Shown: piece by piece, positions 797 to 35,124 of the stretch
How positions within the stretch are numbered: the first letter of the stretch is position 1
Layout of the letters: every line of letters starts with the position of its first letter
From: a virus
Lineage: Duplodnaviria > Caudoviricetes
Reading direction: 5' to 3' (one strand)
Virus record (IMG/VR): IMGVR_UViG_3300020042_000436
Span: 1-38,253 of that record
DNA length: 38,253 bases
Notes under the pieces: generated by a model
The model's input: only the letters and a program-made list of their open reading frames with translations
Databases searched by the model: none
What the model was told of the DNA's origin: nothing
Made by a program: the position numbers and the translations under genes

Positions 797-825
797 TTGC
801 ATACCCCCAAAAGTTGTGCTATATT
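797..825 (+). promoter_or_regulatory. Sigma70-type promoter with extended -10
   Basis: TTGCAT (797-802), 17-nt spacer, TG at 817-818, TATATT (820-825), directly after the terminator. Confidence 0.6.
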
Positions 826-830
826 GCTTT

Positions 831-907
831 TACTCCGGGCTTTCCGGTGCATTAGACAGCCCCGGCTGACGACATACAGACTAATGCACTTCACTTGTAT
901 GTAAGGA
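831..907 (+). ncRNA. Pseudoknotted structured RNA downstream of the capsid gene (possibly the Mu-gpT-DE motif)
   Basis: Three interleaved pairings: CCGGG 835-839/CCCGG 861-865, GTGCATTAG 847-855/CTAATGCAC 881-889 and ACATACA 872-878/TGTATGT 896-902. The location fits the described Mu-gpT downstream element; the identity is not verified. Confidence 0.6.
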
Positions 908-913
908 AAAATC

Positions 914-29200: not shown

Positions 29201-29614
29201 CGTTATGCTACCGAAGGCGCAAACACTCTACGTGGTGATACCGTTGGAGACGTGAATGGCGCTAACGCCGCTATGCAAGTACTTGGCTTTGCACCTGCTG
29301 ACTTGATGAAGCAGTACGAAGAAAATGCGTACATGACCGAGAAGGGTAAGGCCATCAACGATATAAAGAAAAACTCGCTCAAGAAATACTACGCAGCGAT
29401 GCGTGAAGGCGACTATGACGGCATGATGGATGCACGTGAGAAGTTGTTTGAGCTTGGTGCTAAGTACCCTGACCTGAAGATCAGTGAAAACACAATCTCG
29501 CAGTCGGTGAAAGCTCGTGACCGTATCTCAAAAGAGATGCACCACGGCGTGTCGCTTGACCGTAAGCTGGCTCCCTACCTGAAGCAAGCCGCCGCAGAGT
29601 CGTACGGCGATTAA
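23261..29614 (+). CDS. Giant internal virion / large polyvalent protein with a zincin-like HExxH domain
   Basis: 2117 aa, last late gene; glycine-zipper hydrophobic N-terminal region; 'YDPATNTVYL...EILHESSHA...QEFTAEAWSN' metallopeptidase-like motif; helical C-terminal region. Confidence 0.75.
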   Translation: MILTLPKVGLVRFDDNISTEELNKQVGLLAQKYDFKVPKRDVGIGTLLKEGFMRGMGETGIALGDTLPAMAGSALGFDEYAQRQMGEAATSRAELERKYPTQFKSYTEVESPYEGAQYIAETLGELGPTALTAMIPGVGAGALGSRLAARGAMGAALEAGPLSMAGRAAAETAAKQAGQVAGKRAMYGGVYLGSFAQNAPEVFESIYRETDKMEPGIAALAGGLSSVLDAIVPGKLLGELGGYGKMKVIEKVAKDSGAAPKVWKYIAKEAAKTAGAEGLTEAAQESINAAAEQVAGSTKEMFGPENIQRFKESFVKGAIGGGAFGTVGGTSQGFTAKKEFATAKEAEAYVNQLRAQEEAAGTLTPEKAAEYDAQIANDRAQREAGLAAAFAQMPEDVGAVSIAALMERADNIKEFNPGAYERIYGDIDAAIAANKAKIAEDETKAKAQAQAELNKVEAEYDKGLRNKQAGAAFAKAEPTPGTGGMFKPALEQERANKQAATRQFAFGDAPIDPANMPGDPVTVDTLKNLKVSDRSEVGLSLLGTDLETVDGRRKLIQTLEKPSFTGKIDEDAYDALISTFDQQEVKAARAEMNAETLSPTKQKQQAQTRAFAFGAPDATRPDTPAGGGSPSVVSEPISDDATRTDEATVGDRDVSTQQDAGDATAREGQQPTALERDYAEQVFARYDSLPEDQREAAAQRLGLTRPEFIESEAAFTRTKEVDDAITAVTTQIRKSKKATNGTTPPEAQQAEPQEQKAAAAPAAVAPARGTSMRPDLSGEKPVVDAKLGQRGVKLDEQSKDARAYFGKITPAMALDAIANDLVYQPTAYRNSKMTLPSVSKPGTFAATPEPTFGNEKEATFFKGQGGIHAKNAEAWARSNLSPEAVSFLDQKVAQYKKEKTNSDTIRRRQEAQTKVGKATKVQVAEEAAAAEAQGEYAPTEEEIADAKGTKTEAGKRKAQMQRLARELAKESKQSFNEDVFGDLDDIADTDTSGLFADADFAAVHSQAHPVVLNQLENNNLSGALQALADSGSSKTAELFADNLSKLVGNVNLVYGAEKSMYDPATNTVYLRDGATEYEILHESSHATMSHTLDNPSHPVTRQVTNIFNQMKQGTEGTYGAQDIQEFTAEAWSNDAFRNRLKEFKPTGEKLTGWERLVNAVRQLLRLSPKTGTALDAVDRMLNDIISPPPETRTGETLYAQSLNNPNIAQEIFTKVGDTIRRQPIMNSERAVGFWKAAGAIGATGRQLMYKALNLSALGDVGGKYLGDSATRFARTVEEMAGYQEKLLEAMSPLHKRLAKFRQNPEYQTWSTLVNDSTRVDVNPEAKLDKYKGSPEKEADWKQLHGRFIKLTDEGKKLYRDLFATYKELDGEFLKSLERNINSMVSDKAQAVSAYQKILFELSTVRIDHYAPLFREGTFWMQYDINGENKKETFESEAERNFARKQLEAKGATNIDVYSRADQLTTKTVPSGTMLADIMKIMKDNQVGDTAIDDLIQLVVKAMPEASILKSRQKRTGIGGYIDNAAFVFDRVSSNTSRQLARMQYGPELQRIMGEMEATVTAARGDVNTYGGELIKEFEGRRGFVMKPTISSLAQFASSSAFYYNLAGNVSSAVINTLQTPLVVFPQLGGEYGFKNSYAALKNAMKFYTSSGYSRDITELTGEVSNQKAMLSIENSVNNGKAPQYAGLIGAMKDRGLLTTSTARDALSSENDNTSSYGSTNKLARQTALVGSFMFHHAERMNREITAVAAYDLEMGKLKNSNLSEAEKQTKAINKALAFVEYAHGAGSTLSGPSLGQGDIGKVLMVFKRFAFSMYYMLFDTMMRSLPIKNATGEERIAIKAAQRQLVGVYGMAAIFAGIKGIPLYWVAELAYNMFQDKDDDDFDTVMRGFLGDLPFKGPVNYLTNLSIADRVGWTDLLWREQKGSKADASAVAQFLETLGGAPVSIIDSILRGKDLIAEGQYERGIEAVLPIGLRNVLKGYRYATEGANTLRGDTVGDVNGANAAMQVLGFAPADLMKQYEENAYMTEKGKAINDIKKNSLKKYYAAMREGDYDGMMDAREKLFELGAKYPDLKISENTISQSVKARDRISKEMHHGVSLDRKLAPYLKQAAAESYGD

Positions 29615-29641
29615 AAAAAGACCCCGACCTAGGCCGGGGTT
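29613..29641 (-). terminator. Rho-independent terminator for leftward transcription
   Basis: Minus strand ACCCCGGC-CTAG-GTCGGGGT (one G-U pair) then CTTTTTTT; lies at the convergence point. Confidence 0.85.
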
Positions 29642-29683
29642 CAAGGGAGATAGCAACCAAAGGAGAGAATAACAAGTTGCTAG
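29613..29683 (-). ncRNA. Candidate small RNA with anti-Shine-Dalgarno loop
   Basis: Extended -10 (TGTGCTAGAGT, 29699-29689) upstream; 7-bp stem TAGCAAC/GTTGCTA around loop TTGTTATTCTCTCCTTTG; ends in the terminator. Confidence 0.5.
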
Positions 29684-29702
29684 GGCGAACTCTAGCACAT
29701 TG

Positions 29703-29906
29703 TTAAGTGATTCGCCAGAACCTCACACCTTGGGTGCCATTCTCCAAAACAAAACGGAGCTTGATGTTCATACCGCGCCCTTTGGCATAGGCAACTACTT
29801 GATCTGCAATACCCTGACGATCTAGGCACGGTATATAGAAGGAACTACCTACTATAAACTTGTGCCATTCTATAGCGACTGGTACAGTATTAGCCGTTAT
29901 TGTCAT
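29703..29906 (-). CDS. Small hypothetical protein
   Basis: 67 aa overlapping the primase end; 'IEW..F.VGSSFYIPC...GVRFWR' is a pattern seen after primases in related phages. Confidence 0.7.
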   Translation of the reverse strand: MTITANTVPVAIEWHKFIVGSSFYIPCLDRQGIADQVVAYAKGRGMNIKLRFVLENGTQGVRFWRIT

Positions 29907-32733
29907 GTTTAGGGGTATCTACTTCTGGATCAAGTTCAGTAGCAACCGTGCAGTCAATCATCAGTGCGTACACTGACGGCGTAGTAATGTCTGAACCTTT
30001 AGACAAACTCTTTTTGAGTACGCCCGTGGCGACCTTGCTCTTCAACAAGTCCTCGCACAACATCTTGTAGGATATCTGGTTCTCACTGCACCATTCACGC
30101 AGTGCTTTGGTAGAGATGAAAAGCGTCTTCTTATCGGGTTCATACCGGGTCATCAGTTCTCCACGGGGTTCCCGTATTGGCGCTTGGAACAACCCCGAGC
30201 GTTTGTCCACGCTGCTGTTGACGATCAGCATGTTGTTGTTCTTCTCGTTCAAGAACATACCAATCCGGCTCAATGGTGTCATGCTATCAGAGCGCACTTC
30301 GACCCGCATACGGCTCAAGGTTTCAACCGCCCATTTATAGACTGCGGACACGTCGATGTCGTGCAAGCCCAGCTTCTTGGTGATGATGCCCGATGTCAGG
30401 GCACATGCTGCTGTCGCAGACCAGAAACGCTCACGCTGTGTGAACCCTGCGGCCTTGTCGAACTTACGCTGTATGTTAGCAAGTAGGCGTTGCACGTCAG
30501 GTAGATTGGCAATCACATAGCGAATGAATATTTCTCCCGCCACACCGTAGTTCTCGTACATGGGGTTGAACATCGCGTCAGACTCGGCCTTGGTCAAGCT
30601 GTCGTTCTTGGCAACTGCAAACTCCAGTACCCGCATCAGTTCGCCCTCTGGAAAATCTTTGAGGTTATACAACTGGTCGTACAAACTCTTGTTGCCTGAC
30701 GTGATTGCAATCAAATACCAGCGCAGTGAATTGCTACGTTCAGCGTTGGACTGTGACTGCATACGGTTGCGACCCCGGCCATGCGTGATAGCGTAGGCCA
30801 TCGCACTGACTTCCTCATCACCCATATTGGTCAACTCATCAATGGTAGGGGGTAGGTTGCCCAGCACTGAGATACGGTGCATACGCGCCAAGTACTTATC
30901 CTCTTGGTTCATCAGCGGTTCAACTGGCCTACCCCAGATGCTGTTGACCATTAACTGCACGGTGGTCTTGCCTACACCCGAGCCATTGTTTGTCAGGTGG
31001 ATGATAGCGCCGTTGAGTTTTGTAAACTTAAACAAGGTTGACCCAAACCCTGCAAAAAGCGTGAAGGCACGTACCTCGTTGCCCGGTGCTGCATAGATGT
31101 TGGCAACTTTCTTCCACTCAGAAGCCACACCCTTCTTGGTGTAGAAACTGGCAATCTCTGAGGTGGCGTTTGATGACGGGCTATAGTTCACGCCCGTTGC
31201 CGTGATCTCCCGGTTACCCAAAATAAACTTGGTGTCGTCTTCATGCCAGCCAAATTGCTGACGTGCTTTTTCTGCTTCTGTCAGGTGCTGAAGTTCTTGC
31301 ACCCACTTGGTGATGTATCCCATAAGTAAATCCAGTCTTTTGTTGTAGGCAGTTACGCCCTGAAATGCCAATATTTCCCGCAGTCTGTCTTTGGATAAGA
31401 CACTTGAAAGCGGAGCGGAGAACTCACGTATGCCGTCCTTAGGCATGTGCAAACGCATCCACAAAGATTCTCCTGTGTCTGGGTCGTTCAACCGTTTGAC
31501 CACATAAAAATCGTACTCATAGATTAGTTCGTCTTTGTTGTCTTCACCCTTGTCGTCCTTGCCCCAACCCCGCTTGTACACCCCGCCGTTCTTACCGCGA
31601 AAGTATGGGAATGGATACTCAGGAATTTCTACCGTGACTACCTCTTCCAGCACAGCGTTGCGCATGACAACAATGTTGTCCTCTGCCTTAGCCTCTGCAA
31701 TGCGTGAGCCAATCTGAATGGGTGAAGTAATTTTGCCCTTGTGTGGGCAGTCTTGGCAGGGTGCGGCGTTGATGCTTAAAAACGTAGCACACTTGTACGG
31801 CTTTTCCAGCAAGTTGTGCGCCTTGTTGAACGTCTCTTGTGGGTCGTACTCGGGGTGCTGATTGCTGATCTTGTGAATCGCTTTCTCACCGTCTTCGCAG
31901 TTGATGGCAATGGACAGTCCTGCTCTCCACAGCGGCTCTTCTACGGTATCTTGCTCTTTGTATATGCGCAAGAGTTGTGCGCATCCTTCCCCCTCGGCGC
32001 TCTTGCGCATGATCGTTGCAAACTTTGAGATGCTGTTACCCATCAAAGCGCGAGACGTTGCATCTATTGGGCGGCGTGGTGGTGCGTCACCGCCAAACAG
32101 GCTTTGCGGTTCGTCCTCCTCATCTTCTATGCCTATCAACGTCTTGAAGCGTGCGAACTCCACAGGCGGCGACTCAACCAATATAGATACTGGCTTTGGC
32201 GGGTTATCCTTAAAATTCAGCGTCTCGGGGATACGCAGTATCCGGGCAGCGTCGGCTGTGACAGAAGGGTCAGCAGACAGGTTGTATGTGGCACAGAATT
32301 TCTTCAATGCCTCGGCTGTTGGCTTCCAATCGTTGTACCCAATAGTCTCTTTAAGTATCCAGTAGACGTGCAAGCCACGTCCTGAGTTGATGACGGTGGG
32401 TCGAGGTAGTCCGGTTGCTTTAACAAATAGTCTGAGTGCATTCAGTGCGGATGCTTGCGTGTCGTAGGGTTTATTGTCCCCGCAGTCTAGGTCAAGCCAG
32501 AAAGCCTTAAACCATTTTGCGTTCTTTGCGGTACGGCCTTCGGTTTCTAAAAGGTATTTGGCACACCCAAAATATGTGTCATACCCCTGCGAAATAAGCC
32601 CCTCTACGACTCCATCAATCTCAACAAGTGTCTCTACAAACGTCTGCCTCGGCGCACCTTTCTTCAATCCAACCACACAGTACAAGCCTTCAGGGGCAAG
32701 CACCGATGTGAGAAAGGTATTCCGTATTGTCAT
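29890..32733 (-). CDS. Primase-helicase (AEP/RepB-like primase domain, Cys-rich linker, DUF927, P-loop helicase)
   Basis: 'FWLDLDCG', 'VINSGRGLHVYW', 'DAARILRIP', C...C..CPH, Walker A 'GSGVGKTT', Walker B 'TIDELT'. Confidence 0.85.
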   Translation of the reverse strand: MTIRNTFLTSVLAPEGLYCVVGLKKGAPRQTFVETLVEIDGVVEGLISQGYDTYFGCAKYLLETEGRTAKNAKWFKAFWLDLDCGDNKPYDTQASALNALRLFVKATGLPRPTVINSGRGLHVYWILKETIGYNDWKPTAEALKKFCATYNLSADPSVTADAARILRIPETLNFKDNPPKPVSILVESPPVEFARFKTLIGIEDEEDEPQSLFGGDAPPRRPIDATSRALMGNSISKFATIMRKSAEGEGCAQLLRIYKEQDTVEEPLWRAGLSIAINCEDGEKAIHKISNQHPEYDPQETFNKAHNLLEKPYKCATFLSINAAPCQDCPHKGKITSPIQIGSRIAEAKAEDNIVVMRNAVLEEVVTVEIPEYPFPYFRGKNGGVYKRGWGKDDKGEDNKDELIYEYDFYVVKRLNDPDTGESLWMRLHMPKDGIREFSAPLSSVLSKDRLREILAFQGVTAYNKRLDLLMGYITKWVQELQHLTEAEKARQQFGWHEDDTKFILGNREITATGVNYSPSSNATSEIASFYTKKGVASEWKKVANIYAAPGNEVRAFTLFAGFGSTLFKFTKLNGAIIHLTNNGSGVGKTTVQLMVNSIWGRPVEPLMNQEDKYLARMHRISVLGNLPPTIDELTNMGDEEVSAMAYAITHGRGRNRMQSQSNAERSNSLRWYLIAITSGNKSLYDQLYNLKDFPEGELMRVLEFAVAKNDSLTKAESDAMFNPMYENYGVAGEIFIRYVIANLPDVQRLLANIQRKFDKAAGFTQRERFWSATAACALTSGIITKKLGLHDIDVSAVYKWAVETLSRMRVEVRSDSMTPLSRIGMFLNEKNNNMLIVNSSVDKRSGLFQAPIREPRGELMTRYEPDKKTLFISTKALREWCSENQISYKMLCEDLLKSKVATGVLKKSLSKGSDITTPSVYALMIDCTVATELDPEVDTPKHDNNG

Positions 32734-32796
32734 TATTTTCTCTTTTACAGACAGGTATGCCTTCAGGTCTACTGGCGATAGACCCTAAGCAAAAAA

Positions 32797-33045
32797 TCAG
32801 GCGGCGGTGACTGCCGACAGGCGGTTCAGCAATCCCCATAATAGTTCTCGTTTTCTCGGTTGAGGTTTTGTCTTCCCCAAGAACCACAAGTACACCGACT
32901 GCCGTGATACGTTTAAATAATCCGCAACATCTTGCACAGGAATGTCGCGTTGAATGCAGATACGCCCAAGTTGCACACCCACATGAAATGGGTCTGCCTT
33001 GATGTTGGCATCCACAAATTTACGGGAATAGCCTTTGTTGTCCAT
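32797..33045 (-). CDS. Cro/CI-type helix-turn-helix protein
   Basis: Probable start MDNKGYS at 33045; 'VQDVADYLNVSRQSVYLWFLGKTKP'. Confidence 0.75.
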   Translation of the reverse strand: MDNKGYSRKFVDANIKADPFHVGVQLGRICIQRDIPVQDVADYLNVSRQSVYLWFLGKTKPQPRKRELLWGLLNRLSAVTAA

Positions 33046-33502
33046 ATTTGCCCATGACTTCTTCGTAATCGAATACTTCTTTAAAGCATTCGTTAATGCT
33101 AACTTCTTCGGGGCTTGTACCTTCAACATTGCCCCGGTATGTGAATACTTTTTTGGGTACCCGAACTTCACCTTGGGCAAACTCTCTACCTAATTGCGTA
33201 GACCGCCAAATGCCTGAAAACTTCGCTTTGTGCGTTTTGTCTTTGCTTTTGCGTTCTACGAGACCCCACCAGTGCAGAGTAGCTAATTGGTTTGACCGTA
33301 CCAACCATTGAGGCGCAGATGTCGGCACGTCTACCCAACCGTCTTTGTCCCCAGTTTGTCGGCATAACCATATCAATGCACTTGCCATAGTATTGTTGAT
33401 ACCACGGGCATACACACGACCCCAGCGGTCACACACAGGGCAGTGCCCACCTTCGTCATCAATGGTATGCCGCCACTGATCTCTCAGTTCTTGCTTGTCC
33501 AT
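33020..33502 (-). CDS. Hypothetical protein (CPVC motif, possible winged helix)
   Basis: Strong RBS AAAGGAGAG; 160 aa. Confidence 0.7.
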   Translation of the reverse strand: MDKQELRDQWRHTIDDEGGHCPVCDRWGRVYARGINNTMASALIWLCRQTGDKDGWVDVPTSAPQWLVRSNQLATLHWWGLVERKSKDKTHKAKFSGIWRSTQLGREFAQGEVRVPKKVFTYRGNVEGTSPEEVSINECFKEVFDYEEVMGKYGQQRLFP

Positions 33503-33544
33503 AACGCTCTCCTTTGATGGGCGGGAGTTACCCCGCCCGTTTAA

Positions 33545-34486
33545 TTATTCAGTCCAGTCGTCCAAAATGTCAGCCACGTCTTTTGGTGCAGCTTTTTTGG
33601 TGATGCGCTTGGTTGGCTCTGATGGCTCTTCAGCGGGTGCAGCCTGTGCATCACGTTGCTCTTTGCGGCCAGAGCCAATTGCATGCGCCATTTCAGGAGT
33701 CACGGTAATACCCGTAACATCATCTTCAACAACAGGGGTGCGTTCAACACTTGCTCTCGTCACGCCATCAAGCTGCGCAGCAGTCCCGGCAATAGCGGCC
33801 TTGGCTTCAGCAGACTGACCCTTCTCGACTGTCAATGCCAACTCTTCTTCAGTTAGAGGGCGCACTGCCTTAAAGGTCAAGCGTGGGGTTGCGCTTGCGG
33901 TATCAAAACGCATTTCAGTGACAACAGCCGTGACGGGCAAACCATGACTGCCTAAGAACTTTGCGTATGCTTGCAGAGGCATTTTTCCGTTCTCAACCGC
34001 ACCAAAGATTGACTGAGCGGGAAGCGTCAGTTGATATACGTCTCCACGAATATCGTTCTCCAAGAGGACGGCAAGGCGCTGGCTAAATCGGCACGCACGG
34101 GAATCACCTTGACCAGAGCCTTTGATGTTCTGTGGGCAGGTAGCGCACTTGCTGGCCTGTGGTTCGTCTGATTTGATGTCGGGGGTAACGCCATCGTTTG
34201 ACCAGCAGGACGGGGCGGCAGCTTGTCCTTCTTGATAGGCACCTGCATAGTAAGTTCTCGATACGTTGGGGTTTGCTGCCGTGATGATGATAGGCATTGC
34301 ACGGTCTTCATTTTGGGCAATCTCTTTGCCATCGACCATCATGCGAAACACGTTGCCGCGAATCGAGATGCGCTTACCGCCACCACCGCTGCCCATTAGG
34401 GCTTTTGTAGTTGCGTCAAGTTGCAGATTCTTCAGGTGGGCTGGCAGTGTATTGCCACCCTTGGAAAACAAAGTCATTTCACTCAT
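33545..34486 (-). CDS. Putative single-stranded DNA-binding/annealing protein
   Basis: 313 aa; 'RISIRGNVFR', 'PSCWSNDG..P', 'CATCPQN.KGSG...RACR'; acidic/aromatic C-terminal tail 'ADILDDWTE'; replication-module position. Confidence 0.6.
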   Translation of the reverse strand: MSEMTLFSKGGNTLPAHLKNLQLDATTKALMGSGGGGKRISIRGNVFRMMVDGKEIAQNEDRAMPIIITAANPNVSRTYYAGAYQEGQAAAPSCWSNDGVTPDIKSDEPQASKCATCPQNIKGSGQGDSRACRFSQRLAVLLENDIRGDVYQLTLPAQSIFGAVENGKMPLQAYAKFLGSHGLPVTAVVTEMRFDTASATPRLTFKAVRPLTEEELALTVEKGQSAEAKAAIAGTAAQLDGVTRASVERTPVVEDDVTGITVTPEMAHAIGSGRKEQRDAQAAPAEEPSEPTKRITKKAAPKDVADILDDWTE

Positions 34487-34674
34487 TTTTTCTCTCCAGT
34501 AGTTACGGGTTTTGCTTGCATTAAAGTAAGAATGTCGGCACGGTTAAAACGCACCTTGCTACCTACACGAAAATGAGGAATCGCTCCCTCCTTAATCAAG
34601 TTGTAGATTGTCTGACGCGACATGCGCATCAGCTTTGCTACTTCTTGAACTGTCAGTGACGCTTCAAGTTCCAC
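34483..34674 (-). CDS. Excisionase-family (MerR-like) helix-turn-helix protein
   Basis: GTG start with RBS AAGGAG; 'LTVQEVAKLMRMSRQTIYNLIKEGAIPHFRVGSKVRF'. Confidence 0.85.
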   Translation of the reverse strand: MELEASLTVQEVAKLMRMSRQTIYNLIKEGAIPHFRVGSKVRFNRADILTLMQAKPVTTGEKK

Positions 34675-35071
34675 TTGTGGTTCTCCTTATGGTTACGCTA
34701 TATTTACTATCAGTGTTCAAACCTATAGGCATAAGCTCAGGTTTGTCTTCCAATAGCTGTTTTATAGTAGCTTGACTGATACGCCGCTCAAGCAGTTCGG
34801 GCATCTTGTGTTCCAAGATGAACTTGTGCATGGACTCCCAGTCGCTTGTCCAGTAGCGTGTCTTCACCGTACGCATGACCGTACCGTGAGTGCTACCGAG
34901 ACGATCAACACCGATCTCTTTGCAGATTTCCAATAGCTTGGACTCCACAACTTCCATCTGTGTCTTCACAGTGCTGTCAGCTTCCTCGTAGTCACGAAGA
35001 ATTTCGGCACGTTTGTCGCGCATCTTGATGTAGACGGCGACGAGTTTGTCAACCGATATTGTCTCGGTCAT
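34664..35071 (-). CDS. Conserved phage replication-module protein (hypothetical)
   Basis: RBS AAAGGAGAG; N-terminal coiled coil, 'GTVMR...DWESMHKFI...ELLERRISQ'. Confidence 0.75.
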   Translation of the reverse strand: MTETISVDKLVAVYIKMRDKRAEILRDYEEADSTVKTQMEVVESKLLEICKEIGVDRLGSTHGTVMRTVKTRYWTSDWESMHKFILEHKMPELLERRISQATIKQLLEDKPELMPIGLNTDSKYSVTIRRTTSGT

Positions 35072-35096
35072 AGCTCTCTCCTTTGTTTGTCTATGG

Positions 35097-35124
35097 ATAA
35101 TACACTAAAATTTTACATTGTCTA
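35097..35124 (-). promoter_or_regulatory. Putative sigma70 promoter with a palindrome in the spacer
   Basis: TAGACA (35124-35119), 16 nt, TATTAT (35102-35097); palindrome TAAAATTTTA at 35106-35115. Confidence 0.5.

What the first reader, a model, noticed from the sequence alone, without database searches (positions are those of the whole stretch)
29613..29699. Candidate anti-Shine-Dalgarno small RNA at the strand switch, complementary to the RBSs of the phage's own replication genes
Seen (minus strand): an extended -10 TGTGCTAGAGT (same TGTGCTA as the promoter at 815-825), then stem TAGCAAC(29682-29676)/GTTGCTA(29657-29651) presenting the loop UUGUUAUUCUCUCCUUUG, a second pyrimidine tract UCUCCCUUG, and an intrinsic terminator, about 70 nt in all. 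The loop matches leftward RBSs: 11/11 nt for gene 35071 (35075-35085), 10/10 for gene 33502 (33507-33516), 8/8 for the SSB-like gene (34490-34497), 7/7 for the excisionase-like and 38139 genes, and 12/14 for the primase (32733-32746). Inference: a trans-acting sRNA (or processed 3' UTR) that shuts down replication-gene translation at the early-to-late switch or in a carrier state, and perhaps also host AGGAGA mRNAs. I know of no description of this element. Alternative: the + strand GGA-in-loop sequence acts as a CsrA/RsmA sponge.
Basis: partly seen in the sequence, partly recalled or inferred. Interest (0 to 1): 0.85.

Follow-up and report, generated by a model that had tools for sequence, protein, structure and literature searches.

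The report
Phage RNA brake on replication operon
At the far end of this uncultured phage's DNA-replication gene cluster lies a conserved hairpin-and-terminator sequence whose loop matches, and across related phages changes together with, the ribosome-binding site of the first gene of the same cluster, so it is likely a small RNA that would damp translation of the phage's own replication genes, though no RNA has yet been observed.

Summary
It follows the same 67-aa gene in 112 of 119 related loci; 4 more carry a shorter variant and 3 are cut off. Promoter signature, stem, CU-rich loop and a leftward-only terminator are kept. The regulon claim narrows. Of nine leftward genes, only the RBS of gene 35071 clearly co-varies with the loop (14 of 16 informative independent pairs, p=0.002). 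That gene opens its own sigma70 unit (45 of 48), which likely ends at this element. The two clades that lost the pairing hide that SD in a hairpin of their own. A second co-varying helix pairs the promoter sequence with the RNA's 5' end and is predicted to refold the read-through copy. Best reading: a promoter-driven ~69-nt anti-SD sRNA giving negative feedback on the first gene of its own operon, like Vibrio CarZ but built like Burkholderia/Neisseria anti-SD sRNAs. It is not an Rfam member. CsrA-sponge and relic-RBS readings fail. There are no expression data, and timing and host are unknown. The scan found this element before on another genome (e1-9792667).

The parts
29613..29681 (-). Predicted 69-nt small RNA (start inferred at the purine 5-7 nt after the -10 box; 59-81 nt in relatives)
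29689..29699 (-). Extended -10 promoter signature TGTGC-TAGAGT, with a poor -35 (TGGCGA, 29717-29712)
   Evidence: TG, T(-12), A(-11) and T(-7) invariant in 49 rows, even where unpaired; divergent clade has TTGCGT-17-TAGAAT
29651..29682 (-). Stem B (29682-29676 with 29657-29651), which presents the anti-SD loop in the short RNA
   Evidence: 91.8% of cells paired but little two-sided change; predicted in 44 of 47 short RNAs
29658..29675 (-). Anti-SD loop (seed)
   Evidence: UCUCC or CUCCU in 47 of 48; co-varies with the RBS of gene 35071
29642..29650 (-). Second CU-rich tract
   Evidence: 43 of 48
29613..29641 (-). Intrinsic terminator that works on the leftward strand only
   Evidence: 5-8 U in the 9 nt after the hairpin on the minus strand versus 0-4 on the plus strand, 48 rows
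29670..29705 (-). Helix A: stop codon, promoter spacer and -10 (29705-29692) pair with the RNA's 5' end (29683-29670); possible only in read-through RNA
   Evidence: 30 cells with two-sided change, 0 of 500 shuffles; 10 of 11 informative independent pairs; G-U 14 vs A-C 4
29712..29723 (-). Constrained 3' codons of the 67-aa gene (Arg codon always AGR), predicted to pair with the RNA body in read-through transcripts
   Evidence: AGR in 39 of 39 versus 15% background
29703..29906 (-). 67-aa gene, last of the leftward unit; function unknown
   Evidence: (DUF7303 lead at score 0.85)
35072..35092 (-). Target: the A-rich ~20-nt leader and RBS of gene 35071 (11-nt exact complement at 35075-35085)
   Evidence: rank 1 of 58 window ORFs
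35097..35124 (-). Sigma70 promoter of gene 35071 (TAGACA-16-TATTAT; TTGACA in most relatives)
   Evidence: 45 of 48
34664..35071 (-). 135-aa first gene of the replication unit; fold resembles Gp157 and host-nuclease-inhibitor (Gam-like) viral proteins; function inferred
   Evidence: E 1.2e-4 and 2.5e-3; no Pfam hit
29890..34674 (-). Downstream genes of the unit: HTH_17/xis-like, 313-aa, 160-aa, HTH, DUF927 primase-helicase
33507..33516 (-). 10-nt match in the RBS of the accessory gene 33502; possible lineage-specific second target

Best explanation
The element is likely a ~69-nt small RNA, predicted to be made from its own weak extended -10 promoter at the 3' end of the phage's replication unit, whose loop is complementary to the RBS of gene 35071, the first gene of that unit, and would block ribosome loading there. 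Shown from sequence: conservation, the terminator on the leftward strand only, complementarity, loop/RBS co-variation, and a promoter signature before both the RNA and the target. Inferred: the RNA exists; it represses translation; silencing the first cistron also lowers the downstream genes through decay or polarity, as CarZ does for carAB; and the copy at the end of the long mRNA refolds (helix A plus pairing with the 67-aa gene's last codons) into a less active form, so that the short RNA is the working regulator. The net effect would be a threshold or negative-feedback brake on a strong sigma70 promoter that drives a Gp157/Gam-like protein and the primase-helicase.
For: Co-variation: 14 better, 2 worse and 1 tie of 17 independent pairs, p=0.0021 (0.019 after correcting for nine genes). 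All 200 random pairings gave p<0.05. Cognate duplexes average -19.1 versus -14.8 kcal/mol for non-cognate (35 distinct loops, p=1e-4). Matched changes are visible: ACAGG, GGGAG, AAATGAG, GAGTGAC. Longest complement is 9 nt or more in 31 of 40 rows, versus 0-3 for four other genes. The target ranks 1-3 among 58-168 ORFs in 10 of 11 genomes. The target has its own promoter in 45 of 48 rows. The 7 rows (2 clades) that lost the extended match are the 7 of 48 with the most occluded SD (3.5-4.3 versus a median 0.2 kcal/mol). Seed opening costs 3.0 kcal/mol in the short RNA, 9.0 in read-through RNA and 4.4 with shuffled upstream sequence (21 of 23 above the shuffled mean). Precedent: CarZ (PMC7398697, abstract and passages).
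Against: No RNA, expression or reporter evidence exists. Without the cis-occluded clades and L051 the pair test falls to 11/3, p=0.029 uncorrected. The cognate loop was best or tied for only 4 of 27 targets by energy. In G004 the target ranks 9 of 100. Stem B shows no covariation above shuffles (214 of 500), whereas helix A does, which fits a longer processed RNA equally well. An RNA starting just before the stop codon keeps the seed almost as open as the short one (median 3.0 versus 2.2 kcal/mol). The window's own read-through fold depends on where it is cut. The -35 box is poor. One transcript from 35090 to 29613 is assumed; a weak hairpin with a U-run follows the HTH gene near 32796.
Confidence: 0.6

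Rival explanations
1. Same target and effect, but the active species is the mRNA's own 3' end. Either a ~93-nt processed RNA has helix A as a protective 5' hairpin (CarZ-like release), or the intact mRNA pairs 3'-to-5' (icaR-like), possibly only when ribosomes finishing the 67-aa gene unmask the seed.
For: Helix A has the strongest covariation. The form starting just before the stop codon folds helix A in 32 of 47 rows with an open seed. Element and target lie at the two ends of one predicted unit.
Against: The promoter bases are invariant even where unpaired or mispaired (A18-C29 in 11 of 49 rows). A divergent clade has a canonical -35/-10 pair. Stem B, needed only by the short RNA, is kept in 44 of 47.
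Confidence: 0.22
2. A broad anti-SD RNA that damps many early phage genes and host AGGAGA mRNAs, with gene 35071 only the best site.
For: The loop pairs better with early than late RBSs in 9 of 11 genomes (p<0.05). There are lineage-specific long matches, e.g. the 360-aa early gene of G001 at -28.4 kcal/mol. Burkholderia double-hairpin RNAs and NmsR act on many RBSs (PMC5688073, PMC5362039; passages).
Against: No clear co-variation for 8 of 9 genes: primase 10/3 (p=0.046) with duplexes of only about -8 kcal/mol, helicase 9/3 (p=0.07), the rest null. A generic anti-SD probe also prefers early RBSs in 7 of 11 genomes. The G001 match is absent from 8 of 8 other orthologues.
Confidence: 0.12
3. 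The inverted repeat is a DNA operator over a promoter, and the loop/RBS similarity reflects shared AG-repeat composition with no RNA-RNA pairing.
For: The repeat is centred between -10 and +1, and two HTH genes lie in the unit.
Against: G-U outnumbers A-C 14:4 on one strand (p=0.015). Non-repeat substitutions are matched on both sides. Control genes show no such effect.
Confidence: 0.04
4. The plus-strand GGA loop is a CsrA/RsmA sponge, or a relic RBS of a lost rightward gene.
For: The plus strand has two GGA motifs, and late transcripts may read into the region because no rightward U-tract exists.
Against: Stem B does not form in the plus-strand folds, and its 22 G-U cells become A-C mismatches there. 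Putative rightward ORFs are mostly 4-10 codons with TTG or GTG starts, and absent in 8 of 48 rows.
Confidence: 0.02

Closest known systems
CarZ (and OppZ) autoregulatory 3'-end sRNAs of Vibrio cholerae (PMC7398697; abstract and passages seen)
   Same: An sRNA at the 3' end of an operon, sharing its terminator, base-pairs with the translation start of the first gene of the same operon.
   Different: CarZ is chromosomal, released by RNase E, has no promoter of its own and needs Hfq. This element is phage-encoded, has its own promoter signature, shows an alternative co-varying fold in read-through RNA, and has no sequence relationship shown.
Burkholderia double-hairpin 'toxic' sRNAs, Rfam RF02278 (PMC5688073, PMC4603805; passages seen)
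   Same: About 60-70 nt, one hairpin plus terminator, CU-rich unpaired tracts complementary to RBSs; best Rfam hit.
   Different: 21.1 bits versus a gathering score of 50, with the first hairpin not aligned. Those are multi-copy host genes with many predicted targets; this is single-copy per phage genome with one co-evolving target.
NmsR-A/B (RcoF1/2) of Neisseria, RF02877 (PMC5362039; passages seen)
   Same: Two UC-rich anti-SD motifs, one in a loop and one in a linker; reporter-proven translational repression.
   Different: 17 bits versus 52; three stem-loops, tandem siblings, TCA-cycle targets.
icaR 5'-3' UTR pairing of Staphylococcus aureus (PMC3868564; abstract seen)
   Same: An anti-SD motif in the 3' UTR pairs with the SD of the same mRNA.
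   Different: icaR is one gene; here 5.5 kb and about six genes separate the sites, and a promoter signature precedes the motif.
c4 antisense RNA of phages P1/P7, RF01695 (search listing only; properties recalled)
   Same: A phage RNA acting on sites in its own operon.
   Different: Not among the 14 Rfam matches at E<=10. Recalled to lie upstream of its targets and to be RNase P-processed; this element lies downstream and ends in a terminator.

Membership tests
RF02278 Betaproteobacteria toxic/double-hairpin sRNA | Covariance-model score at or above gathering (50 bits) | tested here: not met
   21.1 bits, E 0.04, terminator and CU tract only
RF02278 Betaproteobacteria toxic/double-hairpin sRNA | Two hairpins with CU-rich unpaired tracts complementary to RBSs | tested here: met
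RF02278 Betaproteobacteria toxic/double-hairpin sRNA | Growth inhibition on expression in E. coli | not testable with these tools
   needs an experiment
NmsR (RF02877) | Model score at or above gathering; tandem siblings | tested here: not met
   17 versus 52 bits; one copy in each of 11 genomes
Autoregulatory 3'-end sRNAs (CarZ/OppZ type) | Encoded at the 3' end of the operon whose translation start it complements | tested here: met
   continuity of the transcript is inferred
Autoregulatory 3'-end sRNAs (CarZ/OppZ type) | Released by RNase E from the mRNA, no promoter of its own | tested here: inconclusive
   promoter signature present, but helix A allows a processed form
Autoregulatory 3'-end sRNAs (CarZ/OppZ type) | Hfq dependence and demonstrated repression | not testable with these tools
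   needs an experiment
CsrA/RsmA sponge RNAs | Multiple GGA motifs in short hairpin loops (recalled) | tested here: not met
   two GGA motifs, and no stem around the loop on the plus strand
C4 antisense RNA (RF01695) | Covariance-model match | tested here: not met
   not listed at E<=10

The most novel reading that the evidence does not exclude
A two-state RNA switch closes a feedback loop over a whole phage replication operon. The same 70 nt is a free repressor when made from its own promoter and is folded away in the read-through mRNA by helix A and the last codons of the 67-aa gene. Ribosomes finishing that gene, which overlaps the primase end, would unmask it, so completed primase translation shuts the operon's first RBS. 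Late read-through from the opposite strand, which meets no U-tract here, could then cancel it as a perfect antisense.
Probability: 0.2. Interest if true: 0.88.

Novelty: new variant of a known kind. Interest (0 to 1): 0.68.

Why it matters
Few sRNAs of lytic phages have a known target (PMC8244752, passages; PMC12197685, parts 1-2 of 6). Here natural compensatory evolution names the target and points to feedback on the first gene of a phage replication operon, a design that I found described only for chromosomal Vibrio sRNAs. The relatives supply ready-made matched and mismatched RNA/RBS pairs, and two clades that appear to have swapped trans repression for a cis hairpin, so the model can be tested in E. 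coli without culturing the phage. It would also show why a Gp157/Gam-like protein needs tight dosage control.

Tried and rejected
Rfam at gathering: 0 hits in the window. Pattern scan of viral contigs: 90 stretches; complete elements were seen only behind the 67-aa gene, and the rest looked like chance. Pattern scan of 185,579 prokaryote genomes: 41 matches, none followed by a GC hairpin and U-run. My covariance model in 151 Burkholderiales genomes: 4 weak hits (29-32 bits), promoter plus terminator without the loop. No model hit in Rollin, RHph_TM3_14A or Xp15 loci or in 32 kb of DSL-LC04. Gene 35071 relatives in genome contigs: none confirmed; 1 of 401 Burkholderiales genomes had a distant one. 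Sequencing runs: no RNA holder listed. PDB searches for gene 35071 gave only generic coiled-coil or weak hits, and the 67-aa protein gave no match at E<=0.001. The control search for RF02278 rang nowhere and is uninformative. The 360-aa early gene as a conserved second target was rejected. The primase as a conserved target was rejected. Literature: nine searches listed no description of this element. The tables of the IMG/VR structured-RNA survey PMC10690425 hold no match to the motifs tried, but its alignment archives could not be read, so it may be listed there unnamed. Kimelman 2012 was not held.

Full report
Context. The window is 61% of a linear virus record. Rightward genes encode capsid, tail, lysis and a 2117-aa protein; leftward genes encode an exonuclease, an SNF2 helicase and a DUF927 primase-helicase. 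Near-complete relatives are 60-74 kb. Cultured phages are distant: the primase is 31% identical to that of Pseudomonas phage Rollin. The host is not determined. A betaproteobacterium is a weak guess from a distant homologue of gene 35071 in a Methylopumilus bin and the same extended -10 type in Burkholderiales DNA.

Observation. Outside the element, the loop has only two exact complements of 10 nt or more in the window, and both are leftward RBSs (35071 and 33502).

Conservation. The 67-aa gene fetched 56 viral and 63 metagenome loci, many of them repeat records of the same phage. The element parsed in 112 of 119. Four carry a shorter variant (L051-L053, L362) and three are cut by contig ends. 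There are 59 distinct RNA sequences, and one copy in each of 11 genomes searched. The U-tract lies on the leftward strand only.

Promoter. Among 113 elements the -10 box is TAGAGT 90, TACAGT 18, TAAAGT 3 and TAAATT 2, preceded by TGC, TGT or TGA, with a purine 5-7 nt downstream. The fixed positions are those that matter in a sigma70 extended -10 (established knowledge), and they stay fixed where pairing is broken. The divergent clade has TTGCGT-17-TAGAAT at the same place. The phage's early promoters are TTGACA plus TGYTA-type boxes, so this looks like a weaker promoter of the same class. That gives no support for late-specific timing.

Target. I kept 48 distinct loop/RBS combinations that had the element, gene 35071 and a primase over 800 aa (80 rows had both the element and gene 35071), and built a primase tree. 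For independent sister pairs I compared cognate with swapped duplexes. Gene 35071 gave 14 better, 2 worse and 1 tie (p=0.0021). The others gave xis-like 7/7, 313-aa 8/6, helicase 9/3, gene 37206 7/7, primase 10/3, HTH 8/7, 67-aa 6/9 and exonuclease 7/6. The result held over 200 random pairings but weakened to 11/3 (p=0.029) without two special clades and L051. The primase signal (p=0.046) rests on duplexes near -8 kcal/mol and does not survive correction. In a crude ORF-level scan, with genes at 20-kb borders possibly lost, gene 35071 ranked 1, 2, 3, 2, 9, 2, 1, 1, 1, 2, 1 in 11 genomes. Among gene clusters shared by 4 or more of 10 genomes it had the best mean; a 75-aa early gene (6 genomes) came second and was not tested further.

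Operon logic. Gene 35071 has its own promoter in 45 of 48 rows, with a 17-26-nt leader. Two of the three misses show TTGACA with a shorter spacer. The element thus sits at the end of the unit whose first RBS it complements, the CarZ arrangement (PMC7398697). In two clades the extended match is lost (6-7 nt), and exactly those 7 rows have an occluded SD, in five of them through a CU-rich leader hairpin. This is two events only, but it fits a need to restrain this gene. The protein model (pLDDT 85) matches uncharacterised phage proteins, a Gp157 entry and a host-nuclease inhibitor in BFVD. A DNA-end-binding role is an inference.

Second fold. The stretch from the stop codon of the 67-aa gene through the -10 box pairs with the RNA's first nucleotides. 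Evidence: 30 two-sided changes (0 of 500 shuffles), 10 better and 1 worse of 13 pairs, and G-U over A-C by 14:4 in 27 distinct outer helices. The divergent clade keeps an equivalent helix. Predicted folds: stem B in 44 of 47 short RNAs, and helix A in 31-32 of 47 longer ones. The seed is harder to open in read-through RNA than with shuffled upstream sequence (23 of the 48 rows used). An Arg codon near the gene's end is AGR in 39 of 39 rows against a 15% background. Against: stem B itself shows no excess covariation, and the window's long fold changes with the cut point.

Mechanism. I commit to a promoter-driven anti-SD sRNA repressing translation of the operon's first gene (0.6). A processed or in-cis form with the same target takes 0.22 and a broad regulon 0.12. 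So pairing with the 35071 RBS as the core function is about 0.8-0.85. Existence of the RNA, repression, polarity and timing are all untested.

Comparison. It works like CarZ and is built like RF02278/NmsR, but scores far below their thresholds. No bacterial homologue was found in the genomes searched. Nine literature searches listed no description, and the alignment files of PMC10690425 could not be read. The scan has noted this element on another genome and similar anti-RBS tails in unrelated phages, which suggests a recurring design; those are unchecked notes. Verdict: a real, conserved, undescribed phage RNA, a new variant of a known kind, interest 0.68.

Noticed in passing
window 797-913 (+): A sigma70 promoter (TTGCAT-17-TATATT) is followed by an ~80-nt three-helix pseudoknotted leader ending at the SD of gene 914. 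It is present with visible compensatory changes in 10 of 10 relatives, with no Rfam match over threshold. The scan noted it earlier (e1-6271948, e1-6240359).
   Followed up: partly
L187:4740-4762 (G001): The RBS of a 360-aa early gene matches the G001 loop region over about 19 of 20 nt (-28.4 kcal/mol), but 8 orthologues lack the match: a possible recent recruitment of a target.
   Followed up: yes
window 29614-29641 (+): No U-tract follows the hairpin on the late strand in 48 rows, so late transcripts may run through as a perfect antisense to the small RNA.
   Followed up: partly
window 33516-33541: A strong GC hairpin lies between the 313-aa gene and gene 33502, directly 5' of the second-best RBS match, without a U-tract on the coding strand.
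   Followed up: no
L032, L036, L038, L046, L354, L049, L359 (leader of the 35071 orthologue): The SD is occluded in cis in the clades that lost the long match to the loop.
   Followed up: partly
L411:6-359 (G011 contig C24): A 39%-identical homologue of gene 35071 sits at a contig end beside housekeeping genes in a Methylopumilus bin, a possible prophage edge.
   Followed up: partly
window 34664-35071: The PHROG label 'minor head protein' (phrog_13900) looks doubtful: the gene lies in the replication cluster here and in Xp15, and its fold resembles Gp157/Gam-like proteins.
   Followed up: partly
window 35108-35122 (-), promoter spacer of gene 35071: The spacer after TTGACA keeps a TGT-AAA-TTT-like core in most of 48 rows, a possible operator for one of the HTH proteins.
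   Followed up: no
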